The notes under the pieces were generated by a model that saw only the letters and a list, made by a program, of their open reading frames with translations, was not told the origin of the DNA and searched no databases. The position numbers and the translations under genes are program-made. Below are positions 31,685 to 55,600 of a stretch of DNA of 64,000 nucleotides, in pieces. The DNA lies in NCBI GenBank assembly GCA_965216585.1, contig CBDCGC010000002.1, positions 483,160-547,159 of the forward strand, written 5' to 3'. The stretch's first letter is position 1. Each line of letters starts with the position of its first letter. The stretch comes from an uncultured Candidatus Binatia bacterium (GTDB taxonomy: Bacteria > Desulfobacterota > Binatia > HRBIN30 > CADEER01).

Positions 31685-31750
31685 GTCACCATTCACCAAT
31701 CACCATTCACCAATCACCATTCACCAGTCACCACTCACCATTCACCACCC
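31685..31750. repeat. Heptanucleotide microsatellite (NTCACCA) x ~9
   Basis: gtcacca ttcacca atcacca ttcacca atcacca ttcacca gtcacca ctcacca ttcacca, located between the thiolase stop and the next gene. Confidence 0.7.
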
Positions 31751-45979: not shown

Positions 45980-46216
45980 CACATTGTTTTGTTCAAATGG
46001 TGAGCACTTAGCCCGATAGGGTCCATCATATGACTTGTCCGCAGCTCAACGTTTCCATTGACACTACGCGCCCGACGGGTTCTAAATGGGGAACGTAATC
46101 AAGAAGAGTAGACTGGTCGCGAGCGGTGTATCTCGCACCGGTGTACTGGGGAATCGATGGGGAACTCGATGATGATCAAGGTTTGTAGACCACCGCGCCC
46201 GGCTGCCCGCAAAACC

Positions 46217-48391
46217 ATGGCGTACAAGGCTTTGCTTGCTACATCGCTGTGGACGCTCAGCCTTCTCGGCGAGCCGCTGCTGGCCCACCCGGTGAGCGGG
46301 AATCTGGCGAGCAACTGTCGCATCGTGGCGACCAACTCGAGTATCAGCGTCTATTTGGACGTCGACAACACCACAGAACAGCAAGCCAAGAACCTCACCG
46401 CGGGCCTGCTCGATGGAACTAATATCGGCGACGCCTCGGTTTTCATCAACGTCACTCCAGGTCGACAGACCATCTTGCCCGGCAAGCGCAAGACCTTTCG
46501 CTGGCGTGGCGAGATTTTCGGCAACGGATTTCTCGATCTGACCGTCAGTGTCACCGGCACCTGGGACGACGGGGATCCGGCGACGACGGGTTTGGTGAAC
46601 TGCCCGCGACTGACGGTCGGCGATCCGGCCAGCCTGACGCCGCCGCCGACCAACACGGAGGCGATCCAGCCGACCTTCGGCTCGCAGCCGACGGCGACAC
46701 CGAGTCGCCGCGACCGGCGCGACACGCCGGTGCCGGTCACCCGCGCACCGACCAACACGCGGCGGCCGACGCGCACACCGATTCCGCCGCGACCGACGCG
46801 CACGCGCATCCCGACCAGCACGCGGCGGCCGCCGAGCACACCGATCGAACGCGATACTCCTGGTGACAACCGGCCGACGCGCACTCCCGACATCGGCGGT
46901 GAGCCGACACCGGAACGCCGCGTTCGACCGACCCGCACACCGATCGTCGGCCGCGCGACGCGCACGCCGATTGGCGGGAGGGCGACCCGTACACCGGTGC
47001 CGCAGCGGCCGACCCGCACGCCGATCCAGCTGCGGCCGACGCGCACGCCGCGCGGCGCCAACGTGCTGCCGACCGTGCCGCGCGAAGGGCAGGTTCCGGC
47101 CGAGGTGGTCGGCCGTCTGACCGCCAACTGCAGCCTGCGCCAGACCAACGATCAGATTGCCGTTCGCATGGTCGTGCAAAACACCACCGCCGTCATGGTC
47201 ACCGATCTCGCCGCCAGCTTTCTCGACCTGACGCCGGAGGGCGGTGCGCTCTTCTTCGACCCGACCGGGCCGAGTCCGCGTTCGTACGGCATCTTCGCAC
47301 CGGGCGACAGCGTCGTCTTCGAGTGGGGCGGCCGTATGAACGACGTCGGCGTCATCGGTTTCGCAGCATCCGTCGCCGGTACGTCGCCGGGCGGCAACCC
47401 GGTCATCAGCGGACTCATCGACTGCGGTTTTGGCTCGGGGCCGAACGGCTCCTTCGACAGCTCGCTGTTCACCGGTTCGTGTAGCATCCGCACCGGCCGC
47501 GGCGGCGCCGTCACGCTGCTCATCAACAACCGCAGCGGCGAGCCGATGTCCGAAATCGATCCGCGCTTGATCGACACCTCGTCGACCGGCACGGCGCAGG
47601 TCAATAGCCTGCGCGGTCCGGCGCCGCGGCGCCTGCGCCGGCTCGCCGGCGGTCAAACCCAGGAGTTTCTCTGGGAAGCCGATGTCCTCGGCAGCGGCAA
47701 CGTGAGCATGACGTTCCAGGCCGATGGCACGGTCGAGAGCGGTGACCGCATCAGCACGCCGACGATCACCTGCTCGACCGAGCTGGCGGCCACCGGCGGC
47801 TTGCCCGATCTCTCTGTCGACGAGCTCGATCAGCGCGGCTCCTGGGTCGTCGAAGAGCAGTTCTTCGGCCCCGGTCACTGCGCTCTCTTCGAAGGCTGTG
47901 TCGGCGGCAGCGGGGTGCGCCGGCTGCTCAAGTTCAACACGACGACACCCAACCACGGCCCCGGCGACCTCTTCCTCGGCGATCCGACCAACAATCCGGA
48001 GTTCATCTTCTCCGAGTGCCACCAGCACTTCCACTTCGAGGATTACGCCATCTATCGCCTGCTCGACATGAACGGCAATCAGGTGGCGCAGGGGCACAAG
48101 CAGGCCTTCTGCCTGGTCGACCTGTGGCGCCCGCCGGGCTCCAACGGTGCCCGCAACCCGGGCTTCCCCGACTGCGGTTTTCAGGGCATCAGCGCCGGCT
48201 GGGCCGACGTCTACCACCGCGATCTGGACTGCCAGTGGATCGACATCACCAACGTCCCGGACGGCCGCTACATCCTCGAGGTCCACATCAACCCGGCCCG
48301 GGTGGTGCAGGAATCGAACTACGCGAACAACATCGCGCGCAACGAGGTGTGCATCGGCATCCCAGAGGACGACGGCTGTGCGCGATTCTGA
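46217..48391 (+). CDS. Secreted lysyl oxidase (LOX) family protein: signal peptide, three Cys-bracketed ~110-aa domains, PTRTP-rich linker, C-terminal LOX catalytic domain
   Basis: C-terminal ~170 aa: CHQHFH (48016-48033), GHKQAFCLVD (Lys 48097-48099), VYHRDLDCQWIDITNV (Tyr 48212-48214), ILEVHINP...ESNYANNIARN. These align with animal LOX WEWHSCHQHYH / GHKASFCLED / TYGADIDCQWIDITDV / ILKVSVNP...ESDYTNNVVRC. Start taken at MAYKALLATSLWTLSLL (signal peptide). Confidence 0.8.
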   Translation: MAYKALLATSLWTLSLLGEPLLAHPVSGNLASNCRIVATNSSISVYLDVDNTTEQQAKNLTAGLLDGTNIGDASVFINVTPGRQTILPGKRKTFRWRGEIFGNGFLDLTVSVTGTWDDGDPATTGLVNCPRLTVGDPASLTPPPTNTEAIQPTFGSQPTATPSRRDRRDTPVPVTRAPTNTRRPTRTPIPPRPTRTRIPTSTRRPPSTPIERDTPGDNRPTRTPDIGGEPTPERRVRPTRTPIVGRATRTPIGGRATRTPVPQRPTRTPIQLRPTRTPRGANVLPTVPREGQVPAEVVGRLTANCSLRQTNDQIAVRMVVQNTTAVMVTDLAASFLDLTPEGGALFFDPTGPSPRSYGIFAPGDSVVFEWGGRMNDVGVIGFAASVAGTSPGGNPVISGLIDCGFGSGPNGSFDSSLFTGSCSIRTGRGGAVTLLINNRSGEPMSEIDPRLIDTSSTGTAQVNSLRGPAPRRLRRLAGGQTQEFLWEADVLGSGNVSMTFQADGTVESGDRISTPTITCSTELAATGGLPDLSVDELDQRGSWVVEEQFFGPGHCALFEGCVGGSGVRRLLKFNTTTPNHGPGDLFLGDPTNNPEFIFSECHQHFHFEDYAIYRLLDMNGNQVAQGHKQAFCLVDLWRPPGSNGARNPGFPDCGFQGISAGWADVYHRDLDCQWIDITNVPDGRYILEVHINPARVVQESNYANNIARNEVCIGIPEDDGCARF

Positions 48392-48568
48392 GAAAATACA
48401 CAAATCCGCAGAATTCGGGAGAAAGTTCTTGACTGCGGGAGTGAAAATTGAGTAGTTTGCGACCATCGTTCTATAGTATCGGAATTGGGGGACTAGAGAT
48501 CTTGCGAAAAACTGCTGACATTTTCGAAACTTACGGGAATTCAGCGGCGATTTGCAGGTTCCTAGATC

Positions 48569-48576
48569 AAGGAGGA
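48569..48576 (+). promoter_or_regulatory. Shine-Dalgarno AAGGAGGA, 8 nt upstream of the ATG at 48585
   Basis: Strong consensus RBS within a 190-bp lower-GC intergenic region. Confidence 0.6.
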
Positions 48577-48584
48577 CAGCTCAT

Positions 48585-50105
48585 ATGACGAAACTGCGAT
48601 TGGCTCAGGTCACGCTTTTGAGCGTGGCCATCGCGGTATTCACCGTGGGGAGTGCGGGGGCGCAAGCAGTCCGCACGCGGAAACCCACCAAGACACCACG
48701 TCCGACTCGCACGCAGATCGTAGATCAGGCGAGGACGCGCAAGCCGACCAAGACGTCGCGGCCTACCCGCACGCAAGTGATCGACCAGGCGCGCACCCGC
48801 AAGCCGACCAAGACCTCGCGGCCGACTCGCACGCAGATCGTCAAAGATCTGCGCACGCGCAAGCCGACCAAGACCTCGCGGCCGACTCGCACGCCGATCG
48901 TCAAAGATCTGCGCACCCGCAAGCCGACCAAGACCTCGCGGCCGACCCGTACGCCGATCGTCAAAGATCTGCGCACGCGCAAGCCGACCAAGACCTCGCG
49001 GCCAACTCGTACGCCGATCATCAAGGACGTGCGCACGCGCAAGCCAACCAAGACCTCGCGGCCGACCCGTACGCCGCTGAGTGTCGAGGTGAGGACGCGC
49101 AAGCCGACCAAGACGCAACGGCCGACTCGCACGCCGATTCTCAAAGAGGTGAGGACGCGCAAGCCGACCAAGACCTCGCGGCCGACCCGCACGCCGATCA
49201 GCTTGGATGTACGCACGCGCAAGCCGACCAAGACACAGCGGCCGACCCGTACGCCGATCGTCAAAGATGTGCGCACGCGCAAGCCGACCAAGACGCAGCG
49301 GCCGACTCGTACGCCGATCATCAAAGACGTGCGCACGCGCAAGCCGACCAAGACGATGCGTCCGACTCGTACGCCGATCTCAAACGAGATCCGCACGCGC
49401 AAGCCGACCAAGACCTTGCGGCCGACCCGTACGCCGATTCTCAAAGAGGTGAGGACGCGCAAGCCGACCAAGACCTTGCGGCCGACCCGTACGCCGGTCT
49501 CGAACGAGATTCGCACACGCAAGCCGACCAAGACACTGCGGCCGACTCGTACGCCTTTCATCAAGAACGAGAGAACGCGCAAGCCGACCAAGACCCTGCG
49601 GCCGACTCGTACGCCAGTTTCGAACGAAGCCCGCACGCGCAAGCCGACCAAGACCCTGCGGCCGACCCGTACGCCTGCACCTCTCGAGGCCCGCACGCGC
49701 AAACCGACCAAGACCCTGCGGCCGACTCGCACGCCGGTTCCCGAGGAAGCGCCTGAGGCGTTCGATCCTAGCGACGTGACTGCTCGGTGCTATGCCAGCA
49801 ACAAGGGTGGTCCCGACGGCAAGAAGGATCTCGTCCGCATCCTGATGCAGGTGTCAAACCGCTCTGGCGCGGCCGTCCGAGTTAGCGCCGGTGGAATCGA
49901 CATCAGTGGCTCTGGCAACTATGAGCCAGTTACTGGCGCGGCAGGGAATTCAAAACCCGTCAGAAGCTCGGTGGTCCTCTCTTGGACAATTCGAGTTCGC
50001 GGAACGCTCAGCGTGACGGCTACTGCGAATGCATCGGGCCCGAATGGCGAGCAGATTCCGTTGTCAGCCGACTGCGGGAGTGTGACAGGAGCACCTGCTC
50101 TCTAA
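48585..50105 (+). CDS. Secreted Lys/Arg/Thr/Pro-rich tandem-repeat protein: 18 x 20-aa repeats RTRKPTKTxRPTRTPIxKDV plus a C-terminal Cys-bracketed ~110-aa domain
   Basis: Signal peptide MTKLRLAQVTLLSVAIAVFTVGSAGAQA. Repeats have perfect 60-nt periodicity. C-terminal domain resembles the Cys-bracketed domains of the upstream LOX protein. Confidence 0.75.
   Translation: MTKLRLAQVTLLSVAIAVFTVGSAGAQAVRTRKPTKTPRPTRTQIVDQARTRKPTKTSRPTRTQVIDQARTRKPTKTSRPTRTQIVKDLRTRKPTKTSRPTRTPIVKDLRTRKPTKTSRPTRTPIVKDLRTRKPTKTSRPTRTPIIKDVRTRKPTKTSRPTRTPLSVEVRTRKPTKTQRPTRTPILKEVRTRKPTKTSRPTRTPISLDVRTRKPTKTQRPTRTPIVKDVRTRKPTKTQRPTRTPIIKDVRTRKPTKTMRPTRTPISNEIRTRKPTKTLRPTRTPILKEVRTRKPTKTLRPTRTPVSNEIRTRKPTKTLRPTRTPFIKNERTRKPTKTLRPTRTPVSNEARTRKPTKTLRPTRTPAPLEARTRKPTKTLRPTRTPVPEEAPEAFDPSDVTARCYASNKGGPDGKKDLVRILMQVSNRSGAAVRVSAGGIDISGSGNYEPVTGAAGNSKPVRSSVVLSWTIRVRGTLSVTATANASGPNGEQIPLSADCGSVTGAPAL
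48669..49748 (+). repeat. 18 tandem copies of a 60-bp coding repeat
   Basis: Unit approx cgcacgcgcaagccgaccaagacctcgcggccgac(c/t)cg(c/t)acgccgatcgtcaaagatctg, with third-position and C-terminal codon variation. Confidence 0.9.
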
Positions 50106-50143
50106 AGCGGACTGTTCGAGCTGCCTTCCTTGAGAAGGGTGAA

Positions 50144-50178
50144 AGGGTCAGGCCTTCCGGGTCTGGCCCTTTCTTTTT
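50144..50178 (+). terminator. Putative intrinsic terminator after the repeat-protein gene
   Basis: agggtcaggcc-ttccg-ggtctggccct forms an 11-bp stem (2 G-U pairs) with a 5-nt loop, followed by TTCTTTTT. Confidence 0.45.
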
Positions 50179-50284
50179 GTGGCAGCAGTCGTTCAGAGCA
50201 CGGGCGGGCTTTGTCGACGCCTTCGCTTCTCTTTGTTTCACGCCTTTGTTATCTTCATCGTCAAACTCCAGGCGGGAGCACTCG

Positions 50285-51781
50285 ATGCGCGTACGAATTC
50301 TCGGGCTTTACTCTCTAATTGCGTTTCTCCTGCTGGCGGCGAGCGCGGTGGCGCAGACGCCCAGCGTGACGCCCACCCCGGGGGGCGACTGTTGCTCGAT
50401 TCACCCCGGGCCGAGCTGCGACATTCCGGCTTGTGCGGCCTGTGTCTGCGAAGACCAGGAAGAGCCTCTGTGCTGTGTCGACGGCAGTCCGGAGGGCTGG
50501 GATCGCATCTGTCTCGCCTTTGCCGAGAGTGACGACTGTGCCGAGGTCTGTTTGTGCGGCGAGCCGCCGACGCCGACGCCGACGCCGGGTGGTGACTGCT
50601 GCTTGCCGCACGCCGGTAGCCGCTGCGACGACGAAGCGTGTACGACCTGCGTCTGCGACCGCGACAGCAACTGCTGCACGGGACCTTGGGACGCGTTCTG
50701 CGTCGAGTCGGCGCGTACGGTCGACGAGTGCGCGGGCGAGTGCTCGGATTGTATGCCGCTGCCGACCATCCCGCCGCTGGCGACGCCGACGCCCGGACCT
50801 TGTTGCGAAGGCCGCGATCTCAATCCCGGTTGCGATGAGAGTATGTGCGAGAGCTGCGTCTGCGCCGTCGACGCAAACTGCTGCCTCGACACCTGGGACG
50901 AGCTCTGCGCCGTCATCGCGGTCGAGGAGTGCGCCATCGATTGCGTCTGCGTCGAGGACGGCGACTGCTGTAGCGGACACGACGGTTTTGGTTGCAATGA
51001 CCGGCGTTGTCAGGAGTGTGTCATCGCCCTCGATCCGGAATGTGGCGAGCAGTGGGACGACGACTGCGCATCGGAGGCGCGGCTCGAGTGCGCGCTCGAC
51101 TGCACCTGTGGCGATTGCTGCGCCGAGAATCCGGACGAGGTACCGGGCTGCGGCGTCAAACCCTGCCAAGACTGCGTTTGCGAGATCGACGAGGAGTGCT
51201 GCACGGAGCTGTGGGATGCGCAATGCGACTCGATCGCTCGCGATGAATGCTCGCTCGACTGTCCGTGCTTGAACTGCTGCGAGGAACAGGTGGTTCCGGG
51301 CTGCGGTGAGAAGGAGTGTCAGACCTGTGTCTGCGCCCTCGATGCGAATTGCTGCGATGAAGTATGGGACGGCATCTGTGCCGCCCGCGCCGTCGAAGAG
51401 TGCGACCGCCGCTGCGAGTGCGAGGCCGGCAGCAACTGTTGTATCGCCCGGCCGACCGAGACGGGTTGCGACGAAAGCGCCTGCGAAGCGTGTGTCTGCG
51501 GCGTCGACGATTTCTGCTGCACCGACCTGTGGGATTCCACCTGCTCGGACGAGATCACCGTCAACGAGTGCGCCGCCGAATGCTCATGTGATCCTGGGAG
51601 CTGTGTCGGCGATTGCGATGGCGACGGCGAAGTCTCGATCGGTTCGCTCATCCGCTGCGTCGGCGTCGCCCTCGGCAACTCTCCGGTCAGCGAGTGCCGC
51701 GCCTGCGATGCCGATGGAGACGGCGAGGTCTCGATCGGCGAGCTCATCCAGGCCGTCGGCAACGCCCTCGAGGGCTGCTGA
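50285..51781 (+). CDS. Secreted Cys-rich repeat protein: 7 x ~52-aa 10-Cys repeats plus C-terminal dockerin-like pair
   Basis: Signal peptide MRVRILGLYSLIAFLLLAASAVA. Repeat pattern CC-x6-8-GC-x3-C-x2-CVC-x4-CC-x3-WD-x2-C-x8-EC-x3-C-x-C. PTPTPG linkers. C-terminal CVGDCDGDGEVSIGSLIRCVGVALG...CDADGDGEVSIGELIQAVGNALEGC. Confidence 0.7.
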   Translation: MRVRILGLYSLIAFLLLAASAVAQTPSVTPTPGGDCCSIHPGPSCDIPACAACVCEDQEEPLCCVDGSPEGWDRICLAFAESDDCAEVCLCGEPPTPTPTPGGDCCLPHAGSRCDDEACTTCVCDRDSNCCTGPWDAFCVESARTVDECAGECSDCMPLPTIPPLATPTPGPCCEGRDLNPGCDESMCESCVCAVDANCCLDTWDELCAVIAVEECAIDCVCVEDGDCCSGHDGFGCNDRRCQECVIALDPECGEQWDDDCASEARLECALDCTCGDCCAENPDEVPGCGVKPCQDCVCEIDEECCTELWDAQCDSIARDECSLDCPCLNCCEEQVVPGCGEKECQTCVCALDANCCDEVWDGICAARAVEECDRRCECEAGSNCCIARPTETGCDESACEACVCGVDDFCCTDLWDSTCSDEITVNECAAECSCDPGSCVGDCDGDGEVSIGSLIRCVGVALGNSPVSECRACDADGDGEVSIGELIQAVGNALEGC

Positions 51782-51826: not shown

Positions 51827-52174
51827 AAGGGTGGTGTCGCGCCGCGAGACGTTCGAGGGTTCACCGCCGCAATCCAGATAGCCGGGTTAGCCGATCCCAG
51901 CCCGGTTCACCGGGCTTTCTTCCCTCAGCCGTGGGCTTCAGCCCTCGGCTGTTTGCACGCACACATTCACTCGTTTCCCACCCGCCGCCGAGCGCTGAAG
52001 CGCCCGGCTCAAATCGTCAAAGCCCCTGCGGGGCTGAAACGAAGGGTGGTGTCGCGCCGTCGGGCCGCGAGACGCTCGAGGTTTCACCGCCGCAATCCAG
52101 ATAGCCGGTAGCCGATCCCAGCCCGGTTCACCGGGCTTTCTTCCCTCAGCCGTGGGCTTCAGCCCTCGGCTGTT
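51827..52174. repeat. Two ~127-132-bp direct repeats (51827-51953, 52043-52174) in a convergent intergenic region
   Basis: aagggtggtgtcgcgccg...ttcaccgccgcaatccagatagccgg..cccggttcaccgggctttcttccctcagccgtgggcttcagccctcggctgttt. Contains the cccggttcaccggg palindrome. Confidence 0.7.
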
Positions 52175-52175
52175 T

Positions 52176-52485
52176 GTCCGTACACGTCTCCGCCCGCCGC
52201 TGCGAATGCGGAGGCTCCGCTCTATTGGCCGGCGGTTGTCCGTACACGTCTCCGCCCGCCGCTGCGAATGCGGAGGCTCCGCTCTATTGGCCGGCGGTCG
52301 TCCGTACACGTCTCCGCCCGCCGCTGCGAATGCGCAGGCGCCGCTCTATTGGCCGGCGGTTGCTCGCACACATCTCCGCCGGCCGCTACGAGGACGGAGA
52401 CCCCGCGCTCTGGGCCGGCGTTCGCGCACGTCTCCGCCCCCGGCTCCGTGTGCTAGGCCGCGCGCTATTGGCCGGTGGCGGCGTC
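52176..52485. repeat. ~5 tandem copies of a 62-bp hairpin-containing repeat
   Basis: gtccgtacacgtctccgcccgccgctgcgaatgcggaggctccgctctattggccggcggtt, with stem CTCCGC...GCGGAG. The last copy abuts or overlaps the 3' end of the minus-strand gene ending at 52465. Confidence 0.7.
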
Positions 52486-53451
52486 GAGTGCTTCGGGGGA
52501 GGGGACTCGGCCCTCGCGCCGCATCTTGAAGATCAGATCGGCAACGCGCGTCGCCACCTCGAGCTTGGCCGCTAGATCTACGTTGCGCTGGTGCTCGGCG
52601 TCGAGGGTCGACTGTAGGGCGAGGTTCTCGGTTTCGAGATCGCGGACGCGATCGGTCAGCCCACCGCCCTCCGCCCCTTGCAGGTTTGCGATGGTCGAGC
52701 GCAGCTCGGCTTCGCGCTTGCGACTGGCCTCGAGATCCTGCTGGATGGCCGCCATCAAGCGGCGCTGGTCTTCCTGCAGCTCGGCGACCTCGACCGGCAC
52801 CGCCGCCTCGACGACCGCGGGCTGTTGATCGAGGCGCACCTTGAGCTCGGCGTAGCGCTGCTCGAGATCGTCGCGCTCGCCGCGCTCGCGCTGGAGTTGC
52901 TGCCGCAGTTGCTCGATTTCTCCGCGCGCCTCCTCCAGGGCGGTCGCCGTCGCGGCGTCGAAGGGTCCGCTCGAGGTCTCCTCGCGCATGCGCGCCAACT
53001 GATCCTCGGCGGCGACGCGCCGGCTTCGTTCACTCGCCAGCTCGGTCTCGAGACGGGCGATCTGCGGCACCGGGTCGGCTTGGCCCGATTGGGCAGCGAG
53101 GGCCGCCTCGGTCGCGGCGCGAGCCTCGGACAGCTCGGCGCGCAGCGACTCGTTTTCGTTGCGCGCCTGAGAGAGAGCTGTGCTGAGCTCGCGCTCGCGT
53201 GCCTGCAGAGCGCTGACGGCCTCGGCCGCACCAGCGCCGGCGCCGCCACTGGACAGTTGTGTCTCGAGCTCGCGAATACGGCGTTGGGCGCGCGAAAGTT
53301 GCATGCGGATCGAGCGCACCCGGCCGCGGCCCATGCCACCTCTCAACACTGGCCCCGAGCCCGCCGACCGCTCGGCCACCGTGCAGGCGGACGTGAGGGT
53401 CAGAGGAATCAGCAGAAGCCAGGGTGTGAAAAACGCTCCACGTGTCTTCAT
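52465..53451 (-). CDS. Coiled-coil lipoprotein (hypothetical)
   Basis: Start MKTRGAFFTPWLLLIPLTLTSAC (lipobox). Remainder is heptad-rich (ELETQLS..., LRAELSEARAATEAAL...). N-terminal extension of the ORF runs across the REP array and is rejected. Confidence 0.55.
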   Translation of the reverse strand: MKTRGAFFTPWLLLIPLTLTSACTVAERSAGSGPVLRGGMGRGRVRSIRMQLSRAQRRIRELETQLSSGGAGAGAAEAVSALQARERELSTALSQARNENESLRAELSEARAATEAALAAQSGQADPVPQIARLETELASERSRRVAAEDQLARMREETSSGPFDAATATALEEARGEIEQLRQQLQRERGERDDLEQRYAELKVRLDQQPAVVEAAVPVEVAELQEDQRRLMAAIQQDLEASRKREAELRSTIANLQGAEGGGLTDRVRDLETENLALQSTLDAEHQRNVDLAAKLEVATRVADLIFKMRREGRVPSPEALDAATGQ

Positions 53452-53517
53452 CAGCGTCAACCCCAACGTTTTCCGGGAGGGTAACGGCTTCGACCTGGCT
53501 TGTCCACGGGAAAGAAT

Positions 53518-53648
53518 GGGAGGGCGAGTCGCCTGACGAGCCGCCGGTCCCCCGACCCCAGCGGGAGGGCGAGTCGCCTGACGAGCCGCCGGTCCCCCGA
53601 CCCCAGCGGGAGGGCGAGTCGCCTGACGAGCCGCCGGTCCCCCAGAGC
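53518..53648. repeat. REP array, 3 x 46 bp, upstream of the RAYT gene
   Basis: gggagggcgagtcgcctgacgagccgccggtcccccgaccccagcg x2 plus a truncated third copy. Core GGCGAGTCGCC is near-palindromic. Confidence 0.8.
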
Positions 53649-53736
53649 CGTCGACCACCCCGGAACCATCACAACATCGAATGTCAACTCCCCATGCCGC
53701 CAGCGCAATCCGACCGGCACGCGTACCCTGACCCAC

Positions 53737-54207
53737 ATGCCGCATTCATCCCGCAAACGTCCCGCGGCATGGAACCCGCCGGAAAGCCTTACCGACTACA
53801 TCGTGTTCCTGACGGTATGCACGAAGCACCGCAAAGCCGCACTTGCGGACACCAAAGTTCACGCTGAGCTCGTGCGAATTTGGATGGACCAGCCATCTTG
53901 GCTGGTGGGCCGGTACGTCCTCATGCCCGATCACGTGCACTTGTTCTGCTCGCCCTCGATCTCGACAACGGTGCCGCTACCCGGTTGGGTTCGGTACTGG
54001 AAATCGCACCTGGCGCGTTCCGGTGTTTGCGGAACGCAGGTATGGCAGTCGGGATTCTGGGATACGCGGATACGCAGCGACGAGAGTTTCGAGGCGAAGT
54101 GGAGCTACGTTAGAGACAATCCGGTTCGCGCCGGGCTTTGCCGAAATGCAGACGAGTGGCCTTTTCAGGGGGAGATTTATCCTCTGAAGCGGCGAGAGGC
54201 GGATTGA
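53737..54207 (+). CDS. REP-associated tyrosine transposase (RAYT; IS200/IS605 TnpA-like HUH enzyme)
   Basis: 156 aa. HUH motif LMPDHVHLF and C-terminal catalytic Tyr context WSYVRDNPVRAGL. Flanked on both sides by REP arrays sharing a 24-nt core in inverted orientation. Confidence 0.7.
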   Translation: MPHSSRKRPAAWNPPESLTDYIVFLTVCTKHRKAALADTKVHAELVRIWMDQPSWLVGRYVLMPDHVHLFCSPSISTTVPLPGWVRYWKSHLARSGVCGTQVWQSGFWDTRIRSDESFEAKWSYVRDNPVRAGLCRNADEWPFQGEIYPLKRREAD

Positions 54208-54237
54208 ATTCGAAACCGTGCCGCGCGGCGTGGTCGG

Positions 54238-54780
54238 TTGGGGTGTGTTCGGGTCGCCGGGTGGCTCGTCAGGCGACTCGCCCTCCCAAGACAAGAATGA
54301 CGGGGGTGTGTTCGGGTCGCCGGGTGGCTCGTCAGGCGACTCGCCCTCCCAAGACAAGAATGACGGGGGTGTGTTCGGGTCGCCGGGTGGCTCGTCTGGC
54401 GACTCGCCCTCCCAAGACAAGAATGACGGGGGTGTGTTCGGGTCGCCGGGTGGCTCGTCAGGCGACTCGCCCTCCCAAGACAAGAATGACGGGGGTTGTT
54501 CGGGTCGCCGGGTGGCTCGTCAGGCGACTCGCCCTCCCAAGACAAGAATGACGGGGGTTGTTTGGGTCGCCGGGTGGCTCGTCAGGCGACTCGCCCTCCC
54601 AAGACAAGAATGACGGGGGTTGTTTGGGTCGCCGGGTGGCTCGTCAGGCGACTCGTCCTCCCAAGACAAGAATGACGGGGGTTGTTCGGGTCGCCGGGTG
54701 GCTCGTCAGGCGACTCGCCCTCCCAAGACAAGAATGACGGGGGTTGTTCGGGTCGCCGGGTGGCTCGTCAGGCGACTCGC
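54238..54780. repeat. REP array, ~9 x 62 bp, downstream of the RAYT gene
   Basis: gggggtgtgttcgggtcgccgggtggctcgtcaggcgactcgccctcccaagacaagaatgac repeated head-to-tail. Contains ggctcgtcaggcgactcgccctcc, the reverse complement of the upstream array core. No unique spacers. Confidence 0.85.
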
Positions 54781-54844
54781 TGTCCGGTGGCTCCGGGCGC
54801 TTGGCTGCACCTGTGGCCCAATCGTGATACGAAAGGCGTCTGGG

Positions 54845-55600
54845 ATGTGTACTTTGGCCGTATACACAGGGGTATGCGACTCCACGCCGTTACTACTCGC
54901 CGCCAACCGCGACGAGTTCCTGAAGCGGCCAACGGCGCCGCCCGGCGTCTTGTCGGTCGATCCCTGGGTGGTCGGCGGTCGCGACCTCGAGGCGGGCGGT
55001 ACCTGGCTGGGGGTCAACCAGCACGGCTTGGTCGTTGCCTTGCTCAACCGCCGCTCGGCGAGTGGACCGGATCCAAGCAGGGAATCGCGCGGTTTGCTGT
55101 GTCTGCGCGCATTGCAGCAAAACGATCTCGCAGGCGTCGAGGCCCTGCTCGAATCCGAGCAGGGCGATCGCTTCAACAGCTTTACGCTGGTCGCGGCGAC
55201 GCGCCGGCGCGCCCTGGTGGCGGTGCAGGCCGGCGCGTCCATCGCGGTCCGGCCATTGCCTGCCGGCGTCCACATGGTCACCAACTTTGAGGTGAACGAC
55301 GCCGAGTGCCCGCGGATCGCCGGCGCCAGGCAACGCTTTGCCGATGTCGATGTCGGTGGCGAAGAAGGGCAGCGCCTGCACCACCTGCGCGAGATCCTGT
55401 CGACGCACGTGGATGGAGCAGCCGCCGGCATGGAGGACGACAGCTCGCTGTGTATCCACCGCGGACCCTACGGCACCCGCTCTTCTTCGCTGATCGCCCT
55501 GGCGGCCGAATCGACGAGCTATTGGCACGCCGACGGGCCACCCTGCCGCACCGGCTTCTGCCAGGTGGAGCTACCCGACAACGCGACGACGATCGTCTAA
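54845..55600 (+). CDS. NRDE-family (TANGO2-like) protein
   Basis: Start MCTLAVYTG. Hallmark motif LLLAANRDEF. The 75-aa N-terminal extension of the ORF lies in the REP array and is rejected. Confidence 0.65.
   Translation: MCTLAVYTGVCDSTPLLLAANRDEFLKRPTAPPGVLSVDPWVVGGRDLEAGGTWLGVNQHGLVVALLNRRSASGPDPSRESRGLLCLRALQQNDLAGVEALLESEQGDRFNSFTLVAATRRRALVAVQAGASIAVRPLPAGVHMVTNFEVNDAECPRIAGARQRFADVDVGGEEGQRLHHLREILSTHVDGAAAGMEDDSSLCIHRGPYGTRSSSLIALAAESTSYWHADGPPCRTGFCQVELPDNATTIV

What the first reader, a model, noticed from the sequence alone, without database searches (positions are those of the whole stretch)
53518..54780. REPtron: RAYT tyrosine transposase flanked by inverted REP arrays (3 x 46 bp upstream, ~9 x 62 bp downstream)
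The 156-aa ORF at 53737-54207 carries an HUH motif (HVHLF) and a C-terminal Tyr context (YVRDNPVRAGL) typical of REP-associated tyrosine transposases. Upstream copies contain ggagggcgagtcgcctgacgagcc. Downstream copies contain its exact reverse complement, ggctcgtcaggcgactcgccctcc, around the near-palindromic core GGCGAGTCGCC. This is the canonical RAYT-between-inverted-REPs arrangement, here with unusually long perfectly tandem REP arrays. The arrays have been read through by spurious ORFs of neighbouring genes (53500..54207, 54620..55600 and others in the track).
Basis: partly seen in the sequence, partly recalled or inferred. Interest (0 to 1): 0.7.

Follow-up and report, generated by a model that had tools for sequence, protein, structure and literature searches.

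The report
RAYT transposase flanked by REP arrays
A domesticated single-strand-DNA transposase gene (a RAYT) sits between inverted copies of its own small hairpin repeat, here multiplied into head-to-tail arrays; this is a well-supported example of a known arrangement (a REPtron), and the available sequence shows no spread of the repeat through the genome.

Summary
A 45-bp x 2.8 array (53518-53643) and a 62/63-bp x 8.7 array (54240-54780) flank a 156-aa ORF (53737-54207). They carry 3 and 9 copies of one 24-nt core, in opposite orientation. The ORF is an intact HUH-Y1 enzyme of the RAYT type: NCBIfam REP_Tyr_transpos E=3e-22 (1 bit under cutoff), best sequence and fold match to E. coli TnpA-REP (4ER8), and all 26 family-invariant residues present. 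Eight relatives (48-60% identical) from other bacteria carry the same layout. Their flanking repeats share an invariant GGAGGG followed by an 8-pair stem and 4-nt loop with compensatory changes, so the core is a real REP hairpin. Dispersal was not found: no other copy in the 64-kb window, none in 185,579 representative genomes, one chance hit in metagenomes. In one relative (Lacunisphaera) the same REP type is densely dispersed. A Planctomycetota genome has near-identical REPs in direct 75-bp arrays with no RAYT nearby. Tandem REP reiteration and REPtrons without REP families are already published. Verdict: a new member of a known kind, of moderate-to-low interest.

The parts
53518..53652 (+). 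Upstream head-to-tail array: 3 REPs in 45-bp units (REP 24-25 nt plus a 20-nt linker); the third unit diverges after position 36
   Evidence: TRF period 45, 2.8 copies, 100% matches; unit listing
53519..53542 (+). REP 1 (foot GGAG + GGCGAGTC GCCT GACGAGCC), same strand as the gene
   Evidence: exact 24-mer; hairpin model
53564..53587 (+). REP 2
   Evidence: exact 24-mer
53609..53632 (+). REP 3, ends 104 nt before the ATG
   Evidence: exact 24-mer
53737..54207 (+). RAYT gene (156 aa): HUH motif H66-V-H68, W103-Q, catalytic Y124 in YVRDNP
   Evidence: NF047646 E=3.4e-22; 4ER8 phmmer E=1e-8 with Y124 aligned to Y115; 26 of 26 invariant family columns; AF2 pLDDT 89 and top fold hit 4ER8
54240..54786 (-). 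Downstream head-to-tail array: 9 REPs, all on the - strand, in 63-bp (x3) then 62-bp units (REP plus a 37/38-nt linker)
   Evidence: TRF period 62, 8.7 copies, 98% matches; unit listing
54263..54286 (-). REP 4, starts 55 nt after the stop codon
   Evidence: exact 24-mer
54326..54349 (-). REP 5
   Evidence: exact 24-mer
54389..54412 (-). REP 6 (loop variant GCCA)
   Evidence: 1 mismatch
54452..54475 (-). REP 7
   Evidence: exact 24-mer
54514..54537 (-). REP 8
   Evidence: exact 24-mer
54576..54599 (-). REP 9
   Evidence: exact 24-mer
54638..54661 (-). REP 10 (GGAGGA variant: the first stem G is changed)
   Evidence: 1 mismatch
54700..54723 (-). REP 11
   Evidence: exact 24-mer
54762..54785 (-). 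REP 12, degenerate foot (GGACAG), at the end of the array
   Evidence: 2 mismatches

Best explanation
This is a REPtron. An intact, class-2 (TnpA-REP-like) HUH-Y1 single-strand DNA nuclease/ligase gene is flanked by its cognate REPs with their feet pointing outward: + strand upstream, - strand downstream. Each REP is an invariant GGAG(GG) foot followed by an 8-position stem (GGC-GA-GTC / GAC-GA-GCC, with a tandem G.A/A.G mismatch at positions 4-5) and a 4-nt loop. By analogy with E. coli, S. maltophilia and Marinomonas TnpA-REP (inferred, not shown here), the enzyme would bind the folded REP strand plus its 5' foot on single-stranded DNA, cleave nearby through Tyr124 and rejoin strands. At this locus the REP plus a piece of flanking DNA has been reiterated head-to-tail, 3 times upstream (45-bp unit) and 9 times downstream (62/63-bp unit). 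The two unit types share about 39 nt (REP plus a 3' tail), so both arrays grew from one element. Whether the arrays grew by RAYT cleave-and-rejoin between neighbouring REPs or by ordinary unequal recombination/slippage is undecided. In the available sequence the REP has been amplified locally but has not been seen dispersed.
For: Protein: NF047646 REP_Tyr_transpos E=3.4e-22, 78.9 bits; Pfam Y1_Tnp E=2.7e-4; only PDB sequence hit is 4ER8 TnpA-REP, E=1e-8, with HVH aligned to HMH and Y124 to Y115; at least 982 homologues, many named RayT by their sources; all 26 invariant family columns kept; AF2 model pLDDT 89 with top Foldseek hit 4ER8 (TM 0.67), then ISDra2/IS200/IS608. Repeats: 12 cores in inverted arrangement against 0.01 expected. 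Relatives L002, L003, L123, L125, L126, L127, L128 and L130 each have flanking inverted repeats with invariant GGAGGG and a 20-nt hairpin. In the five simple loci the upstream REP is + and the downstream REP is -, as here. Covariation: 5 of 8 stem pairs show double changes; score 0.423 against 0.145 for shuffles (0/500) and at most 0.106 for slid controls. The MFE fold of the 24-mer is exactly the 3+3-pair stem with a 2x2 internal loop and tetraloop. The same REP type is dispersed in L130 (21 copies in 20 kb, 12 far from the gene) and L127. L049 has near-identical REPs in direct 75-bp arrays without a RAYT in 8 kb. Published precedents: 8-bp-stem short REPs and the A3G4 role of the foot (PMC8266576); tandem reiteration of REPs with flanking DNA and REPtrons in species lacking REP families (PMC3733652).
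Against: A single REP or unit does not fold better than shuffled sequence (z -0.2 to -0.7). The NCBIfam and Pfam scores are just under the curated cutoffs. No REP copy lies outside the locus in 64 kb. There are 0 hits for the 20-mer in GTDB representatives and 1 chance hit in JGI metagenomes. The foot is not the canonical GT[AG]G. No conserved C|T cleavage dinucleotide sits at a fixed offset. The REP alignment was assembled by eye from sequences that also suggested the structure, which inflates the slid-control contrast.
Confidence: 0.85

Rival explanations
1. The arrays are ordinary minisatellites that arose by replication slippage or unequal crossing-over. They have no functional link to the RAYT beyond having been seeded by the two REPs that already flanked it, and the enzyme plays no part in their growth or upkeep.
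For: Units include 20-38 nt of non-REP linker. Copies are 98-100% identical. Between two near-clonal genomes (window and L001) the downstream array differs by a mosaic of linker variants, about 10 differences in 540 nt against about 1 in the adjacent 1200 nt, as expected from unit-to-unit conversion. The window has other tandem arrays unrelated to the REP (52174-52475, 48672-49736).
Against: A second genome (L049) carries the same REP in direct arrays with a different linker and period (75 bp) at a locus without a RAYT. L125 and L127 show 2 direct copies per side. So head-to-tail reiteration recurs wherever this REP type occurs, which suggests the REP itself promotes it. This concerns only the origin of the arrays and does not contest the REPtron identity.
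Confidence: 0.35
2. The locus is an autonomous IS200/IS605-type insertion sequence that moves as a unit, with the arrays as its ends.
For: Y1 HUH fold shared with IS200/IS608/ISDra2; weak Pfam Y1_Tnp and NCBIfam IS200 hits.
Against: The IS200 equivalog scores 19 bits against a cutoff of 55. The tyrosine motif is Y-x3-NP (class 2), not Y-x3-Q (class 1/IS200). The flanking hairpins are on opposite strands, whereas IS200/IS605 ends lie on one strand. There is no tnpB and only one copy in 64 kb. The locus is syntenic in L001. Relatives sit between housekeeping genes, each with its own REP sequence.
Confidence: 0.03
3. The repeats are coding: N-terminal extensions of the RAYT (ORF 53500-54207) and of the TANGO2-like gene (ORF 54620-55600), or repeats of the coiled-coil protein on the minus strand (ORF 52465-53745).
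For: Open frames run through both arrays, and the 45-bp unit is a multiple of three.
Against: Downstream units alternate between 63 and 62 bp, which breaks any frame. The 28 homologues in alignment A2 have no such N-terminal extension. The TANGO2 Pfam match starts at residue 1 of the 54845 start. Gene calls on L001 exclude both arrays. High-GC DNA yields long spurious ORFs in all frames.
Confidence: 0.02
4. The downstream array is a CRISPR-like or other RNA-producing array.
For: Regular 62-bp spacing of a partly palindromic repeat.
Against: The 'spacers' are identical between units. No Rfam family matches anywhere in the window. No cas genes lie nearby. No promoter-like or terminator-like site was detected.
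Confidence: 0.02

Closest known systems
Group 3 / subclass 2.5 REPtrons (S. maltophilia REPtron Sm, Marinomonas REPtron Mb, P. fluorescens SBW25 RAYTs)
   Same: Short protein (median 151 aa there, 156 aa here) with DHxH, WQ and Y-x3-NP motifs. Short REPs: Sm has GTAG plus an 8-bp stem and a 3-nt loop, and here there is a foot plus an 8-position stem and a 4-nt loop. In some 2.5 REPs the foot lies 1-2 nt from the stem, and SBW25 REPs such as GTGGGAGGGGGCTTGCCCCCGAT contain the same GGGAGGG string (PMC6006769 Table 1 and supplementary table; PMC8266576).
   Different: Here the invariant bases are GGAGGG and the base before them is G or T, so only about half the copies can be read as xTGG plus a 2-nt spacer. 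The stem carries a tandem G.A mismatch rather than being perfect. The hosts are PVC-type bacteria rather than gamma-proteobacteria. The REPs sit in single-orientation head-to-tail arrays rather than REPIN doublets. Subclass assignment was by motif only, because the authors' HMMs were not available.
E. coli REPtron (TnpA-REP/YafM, PDB 4ER8, with REP/BIME)
   Same: Best sequence and structure match. The gene is flanked by cognate REPs in inverted orientation. HUH and the catalytic Tyr are conserved. An imperfect stem is part of the E. coli substrate (PMC8266576).
   Different: Only 22% identity. E. coli REPs are longer, GTAG-footed, organised as alternating-orientation BIMEs and present in hundreds of dispersed copies.
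TIRtrons / TIRYTs (Di Nocera et al. 2013, PMC3733652)
   Same: RAYT-like genes in species without GTAG REPs, flanked at similar distances by inverted repeats that may be self-complementary, of low or moderate abundance, and arranged as dimers or clusters.
   Different: The published shared motif is GGGGWSAS, which the repeats here do not fit. No GGAGGG-type sequence occurs in that paper's held supplements.
IS200/IS605 insertion sequences
   Same: Y1 HUH fold; hairpin-plus-guide recognition on single-stranded DNA.
   Different: Different tyrosine motif, ends on one strand, multicopy, often with tnpB; none of these features is seen here.

Membership tests
RAYT / TnpA-REP (class 2 TnpA-Y1) | HUH motif and single catalytic tyrosine in a Y-x3-NP context, with a WQ motif | tested here: met
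   H66-V-H68, W103-Q104, Y124-VRD-N128-P129. Y124 aligns to Y115 of 4ER8. Motif table in PMC6006769.
RAYT / TnpA-REP (class 2 TnpA-Y1) | Curated family HMM above its cutoff | tested here: inconclusive
   NF047646 E=3.4e-22 but 78.9 bits against a cutoff of 80. Pfam PF01797 scores 21.5 against 23. The IS200 equivalog is far below its cutoff (19 against 55).
RAYT / TnpA-REP (class 2 TnpA-Y1) | TnpA-REP/Y1 fold | tested here: met
   AF2 pLDDT 89, pTM 0.82. The top PDB hit is 4ER8 (E=4e-9, TM 0.67), followed by Y1 transposases.
REPtron | Gene flanked by copies of one REP family in inverted orientation | tested here: met
   3 copies on + upstream and 9 on - downstream. The same layout occurs in 8 relatives' loci.
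REPtron | REP = conserved 5' foot tetranucleotide plus a stem-loop | tested here: met
   Invariant GGAGGG. An 8-position stem with 5 pairs covarying, score 0.423 against 0.145 for shuffles. The foot is GGAG, or a degenerate xTGG plus 2 nt, rather than the canonical GT[AG]G.
REPtron | REP family present in many dispersed extragenic copies in the host genome | tested here: not met
   None outside the locus in 64 kb. This only bounds density below about 1 per 21 kb at 95%. The 20-mer is absent from GTDB representatives and there is one chance hit in JGI metagenomes. The whole source genome was not available. The literature accepts REPtrons in species lacking a REP family (PMC3733652). The feature is met in relative L130.
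REPtron | Single-copy, vertically inherited gene that does not move with its flanks | not testable with these tools
   One copy in the window and synteny with L001 are consistent with this, but the genome is not available.
REPtron | Enzyme binds, cleaves and rejoins its REP on single-stranded DNA | not testable with these tools
   Needs biochemistry.
BIME | Regularly spaced REPs in alternating orientation | tested here: not met
   Every REP within an array has the same orientation.
IS200/IS605 | Y-x3-Q transposase, both end hairpins on one strand, multiple identical copies | tested here: not met
   Y-x3-NP motif, inverted flanks, single copy.
CRISPR array | Repeats separated by unique spacers, with cas genes nearby | tested here: not met
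   Linkers are identical between units and no cas genes are present.

The most novel reading that the evidence does not exclude
The head-to-tail arrays are direct products of the RAYT's cleave-and-rejoin chemistry acting between neighbouring same-orientation REPs at its own flanks, an in-situ 'nursery' where REP-plus-linker units are duplicated or excised as unit circles. The GGAGGG-footed REP/RAYT clade, widespread in PVC-type bacteria, would then be a REP lineage that GT[AG]G-based surveys have missed, ranging from locus-only (this genome) to densely dispersed (Lacunisphaera).
Probability: 0.2. Interest if true: 0.55.

Novelty: new member of a known kind. Interest (0 to 1): 0.3.

Why it matters
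How REPs multiply is still unsettled: TnpA-REP cleaves and rejoins REPs in vitro, but amplification has not been reconstituted. This locus and its relatives offer a compact comparative series for one REP type: locus-only single copies, 2+2 direct copies, 3+9 head-to-tail arrays, RAYT-less arrays, and full dispersal. They also give a defined 24-nt substrate with a natural tandem G.A mismatch. On the practical side, the arrays cause spurious read-through ORFs, including an extended RAYT and an extended TANGO2-like gene. Annotation pipelines should mask them.

Tried and rejected
1. Folding single units as DNA: not better than shuffles, so thermodynamics alone does not support a hairpin; comparative evidence was needed.
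2. Exact look-up of the RAYT protein: not on record.
3. 20-mer scan of GTDB representatives: 0 hits.
4. 16-mer scan: 116+ singletons in unrelated phyla, mostly coding (WEGESP-type) chance matches.
5. Metagenome 20-mer scan: one hit (L006), low-GC, match ends at the 20-mer, judged chance.
6. Viral-contig scans (degenerate REP pattern, then the protein profile): nothing, then only 28-37% relatives; dropped.
7. Rfam, tRNA and promoter/terminator scans: nothing at the locus.
8. Search for a conserved C|T cleavage site at a fixed offset from the foot: none. Only G/T at -1 and G at +1 are enriched.
9. Attempt to obtain the source-genome accession through the exactly matching MoxR protein, which is on an NCBI 675-kb contig: that contig was not returned.
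10. P0007's contig had no DNA available.
11. The GGGGWSAS TIRYT motif does not fit these repeats.

Full report
**What is in the sequence**

The region 53518-54786 contains three things.
- A perfect 45-bp x 2.8 tandem repeat at 53518-53643.
- A 156-aa ORF at 53737-54207 on the + strand.
- A 62/63-bp x 8.7 tandem repeat at 54240-54780.

The 24-mer GGAGGGCGAGTCGCCTGACGAGCC occurs three times on the + strand upstream and nine times on the - strand downstream. Ten copies are exact, and the expectation from shuffles is 0.01. The upstream unit is 45 bp, not 46. The downstream units are 63 bp (first three) and then 62 bp. The last REP has a degenerate foot.

**The protein**

- The ORF matches NCBIfam NF047646 (REP-associated tyrosine transposase) at E=3.4e-22, with 78.9 bits against a cutoff of 80. 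It matches Pfam Y1_Tnp at 21.5 bits against 23. It scores far below the cutoff of the IS200 equivalog.
- Its only relative among solved structures is E. coli TnpA-REP (4ER8, E=1e-8). HVH aligns to HMH, and Y124 aligns to Y115 of that chain. Y115 is the catalytic residue mutated in PMC8266576.
- A database search returned 982 homologues at E<=1e-3 from 984 candidates, many labelled RayT by their sources.
- In an alignment with 28 of them, all 26 invariant columns are kept in the window's protein, including H66, H68, W103, Y124 and N128.
- An AlphaFold model built from that alignment is confident (pLDDT 89, pTM 0.82). Its best PDB match is 4ER8 (TM 0.67), followed by ISDra2, IS200 and IS608 transposases.
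- By the motif table of Quentin et al. 2018 (DHVH / WQ / YVRDNP, 156 aa) it is a class 2 TnpA-REP-like protein, closest to subclass 2.5 or 2.7. It is not the class 3 type found mainly in Planctomycetes, Acidobacteria and Proteobacteria, whose motif is Y-x4-Q.

**Are the repeats REPs?**

A single unit does not fold better than shuffled sequence (z about -0.2 to -0.7), so I turned to relatives. I fetched the contigs of eight homologues (48-60% identical): L002, L003, L123, L125, L126, L127, L128 and L130. They come from Planctomycetota, Chthoniobacterales and Lacunisphaera MAGs and from unnamed metagenome contigs.

Each gene is flanked within about 5-200 nt by inverted repeats. The repeats differ in sequence between loci but share one plan. 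There is an invariant GGAGGG, preceded by G or T. The last two G's open an 8-position stem, followed by a 4-nt loop (usually TCCN) and the complementary arm ending in CC.

Examples (5' arm, loop, 3' arm):
- window: GGCGAGTC GCCT GACGAGCC
- L002: GGCGAAGC TCCC GCTGAGCC
- L126: GGCCCAGC TCCA GCTGGGCC
- L128: GGCGGAGC TCCT GCTCCGCC
- L130: GGTTGGTC TCCT GACCAACC and GGTCGGCC TCCC GGCCGACC

On the 17-sequence alignment:
- Five of eight pairs show changes on both sides.
- The covariation score is 0.423, against 0.145 for shuffles (0 of 500 reach it) and at most 0.106 when the 3' arm is slid.
- Stem positions 4-5 are a tandem G.A/A.G mismatch in 11 sequences, including the window, and Watson-Crick pairs in the other 6.
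- The minimum-energy fold of the window's 24-mer is exactly this 3+3-pair stem with a 2x2 internal loop and a tetraloop.

One caveat: I chose and aligned these sequences by eye, and the structure came from them.

The conserved hairpin is thus the 20-nt element, not the 11-nt palindrome GGCGAGTCGCC, which the relatives lack. In the five simple loci the upstream REP is on the gene's strand and the downstream one on the opposite strand, with feet outward, as in the window.

**Dispersal**

- In the window, the 24-mer, the 16-mer (up to 3 mismatches) and a generic search for GGAGGG-footed hairpins find nothing convincing outside the locus. There are two marginal hits against 3.25 expected.
- Zero copies in about 62.7 kb only bounds the density below roughly one per 21 kb at 95% (my Poisson estimate). 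A family of up to a few hundred copies is therefore not excluded.
- The 20-mer has no exact match in 185,579 GTDB representative genomes.
- It has one match in JGI metagenomes, which is a chance hit in a low-GC contig.
- If the source genome is among those representatives with the window masked, this would mean there are no other exact copies in it. I could not verify that.
- The window's MoxR protein is on record from an NCBI 675-kb contig, but that contig was not returned.

**The same REP type elsewhere**

- In L130 (Lacunisphaera) there are 21 REPs in 20 kb, 12 of them far from the gene.
- In L127 a doublet lies 5 kb from the gene.
- In L003, L123, L126 and L128 the REPs are only beside the gene.
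- Among the otherwise random 16-mer hits, L049 (a Planctomycetota MAG) carries near-identical REPs (GGGAGGGCGAGTC[G/T]CCGCACGAGCC). They sit in two direct arrays of 75-bp units (2.9 and 2.3 copies), with no RAYT within the 8 kb.
- L125 and L127 have two direct copies on each side of the gene.

Head-to-tail reiteration therefore recurs with this REP type. The window's 3+9 copies are the largest case I saw.

**The arrays**

The upstream and downstream units share about 39 nt at 85% (the REP plus a 3' tail) and then differ. This suggests that one element was reiterated with different amounts of flanking DNA.

L001 is a near-clonal metagenome contig, about 99-100% identical outside a few divergent patches. 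It has the same copy numbers but a different mosaic of linker variants. There are about 10 differences in 540 nt of the downstream array, against one in the adjacent 1200 nt, and one unit looks recombinant. The array therefore turns over by unit-to-unit exchange faster than its surroundings mutate.

Whether the RAYT contributes is unknown. I found no conserved C|T at a fixed offset from the foot. The foot does keep the A3G4 positions that select the C|T site in characterised systems (PMC8266576).

**Comparison with what is known**

- A REPtron, meaning tnpA-REP flanked by its REPs, is well described (PMC6006769).
- Di Nocera et al. [quoted passage not shown] They also describe 'TIRtrons' with non-GTAG inverted repeats.
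- Bertels et al. 2017 show that flanking-repeat abundance ranges from about 12 to 140 per replicon across RAYT groups.
- Group 3 / subclass 2.5 REPs are short. S. maltophilia has GTAG plus an 8-bp stem and a 3-nt loop. The foot can sit 1-2 nt from the stem, and P. fluorescens REPs in Quentin's supplementary table contain GGGAGGG.
- The features that looked unusual (GGAG foot, direct arrays, no dispersal seen) therefore each have a precedent.
- I found no paper describing this clade's REP in PVC bacteria, but the library is incomplete.

**Verdict**

It is a new member of a known kind. Modest points of interest are the single-orientation arrays, the G.A-mismatched short hairpin and the apparent lack of dispersal. 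Interest 0.3.

Noticed in passing
window 51836-51964 and 52059-52185: A module of about 130 bp is duplicated 221-223 bp apart (94-96% identical). Its 68-nt core folds into two strong hairpins (dG -20 kcal/mol, z = -6.0), each followed by a T-run. It is probably a duplicated bidirectional terminator between convergent genes.
   Followed up: partly
window 52174-52475: A second direct array with a 62-bp period (4-5 copies, 82-89% matches) whose unit contains the palindrome GCGGAG-G-CTCCGC. The fold is only weakly better than shuffles (z -1.55). It is conserved in L001 and is a different family from the RAYT's REP.
   Followed up: partly
window 48672-49736 (inside ORF 48552-50105, +): A 60-bp x 17.7 tandem repeat with 120/180-bp super-periodicity, that is a 20-residue coding repeat in a protein with no Pfam match. 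Just downstream of it, at 49518-50117, identity to L001 falls to 70-88%.
   Followed up: no
window 49982-51781 (+): A 599-aa ORF with repeated cysteine-rich modules (the DNA motif TGCGTCTGCG...TGCTGC recurs 7 times) and no Pfam hit.
   Followed up: no
window 46157-48391 (+): A 744-aa ORF with a C-terminal lysyl oxidase domain (E=4e-36). A 27-bp x 4.8 repeat lies inside it at 46928-47057.
   Followed up: no
window 31686-31747: A heptanucleotide microsatellite, (TCACCAT) x 8.9.
   Followed up: no
L049 2365-2709: In the Planctomycetota MAG, an unrelated 80-bp x 4.3 array of hairpin-containing units (AAAGCCGCCTGAAGGCGG...) lies between the two REP arrays, making a composite repeat island.
   Followed up: no
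L125 8286-12608: In this relative the RAYT and its REPs sit between a PglZ-domain gene and BrxL genes, apparently inside a BREX-type defence locus.
   Followed up: no
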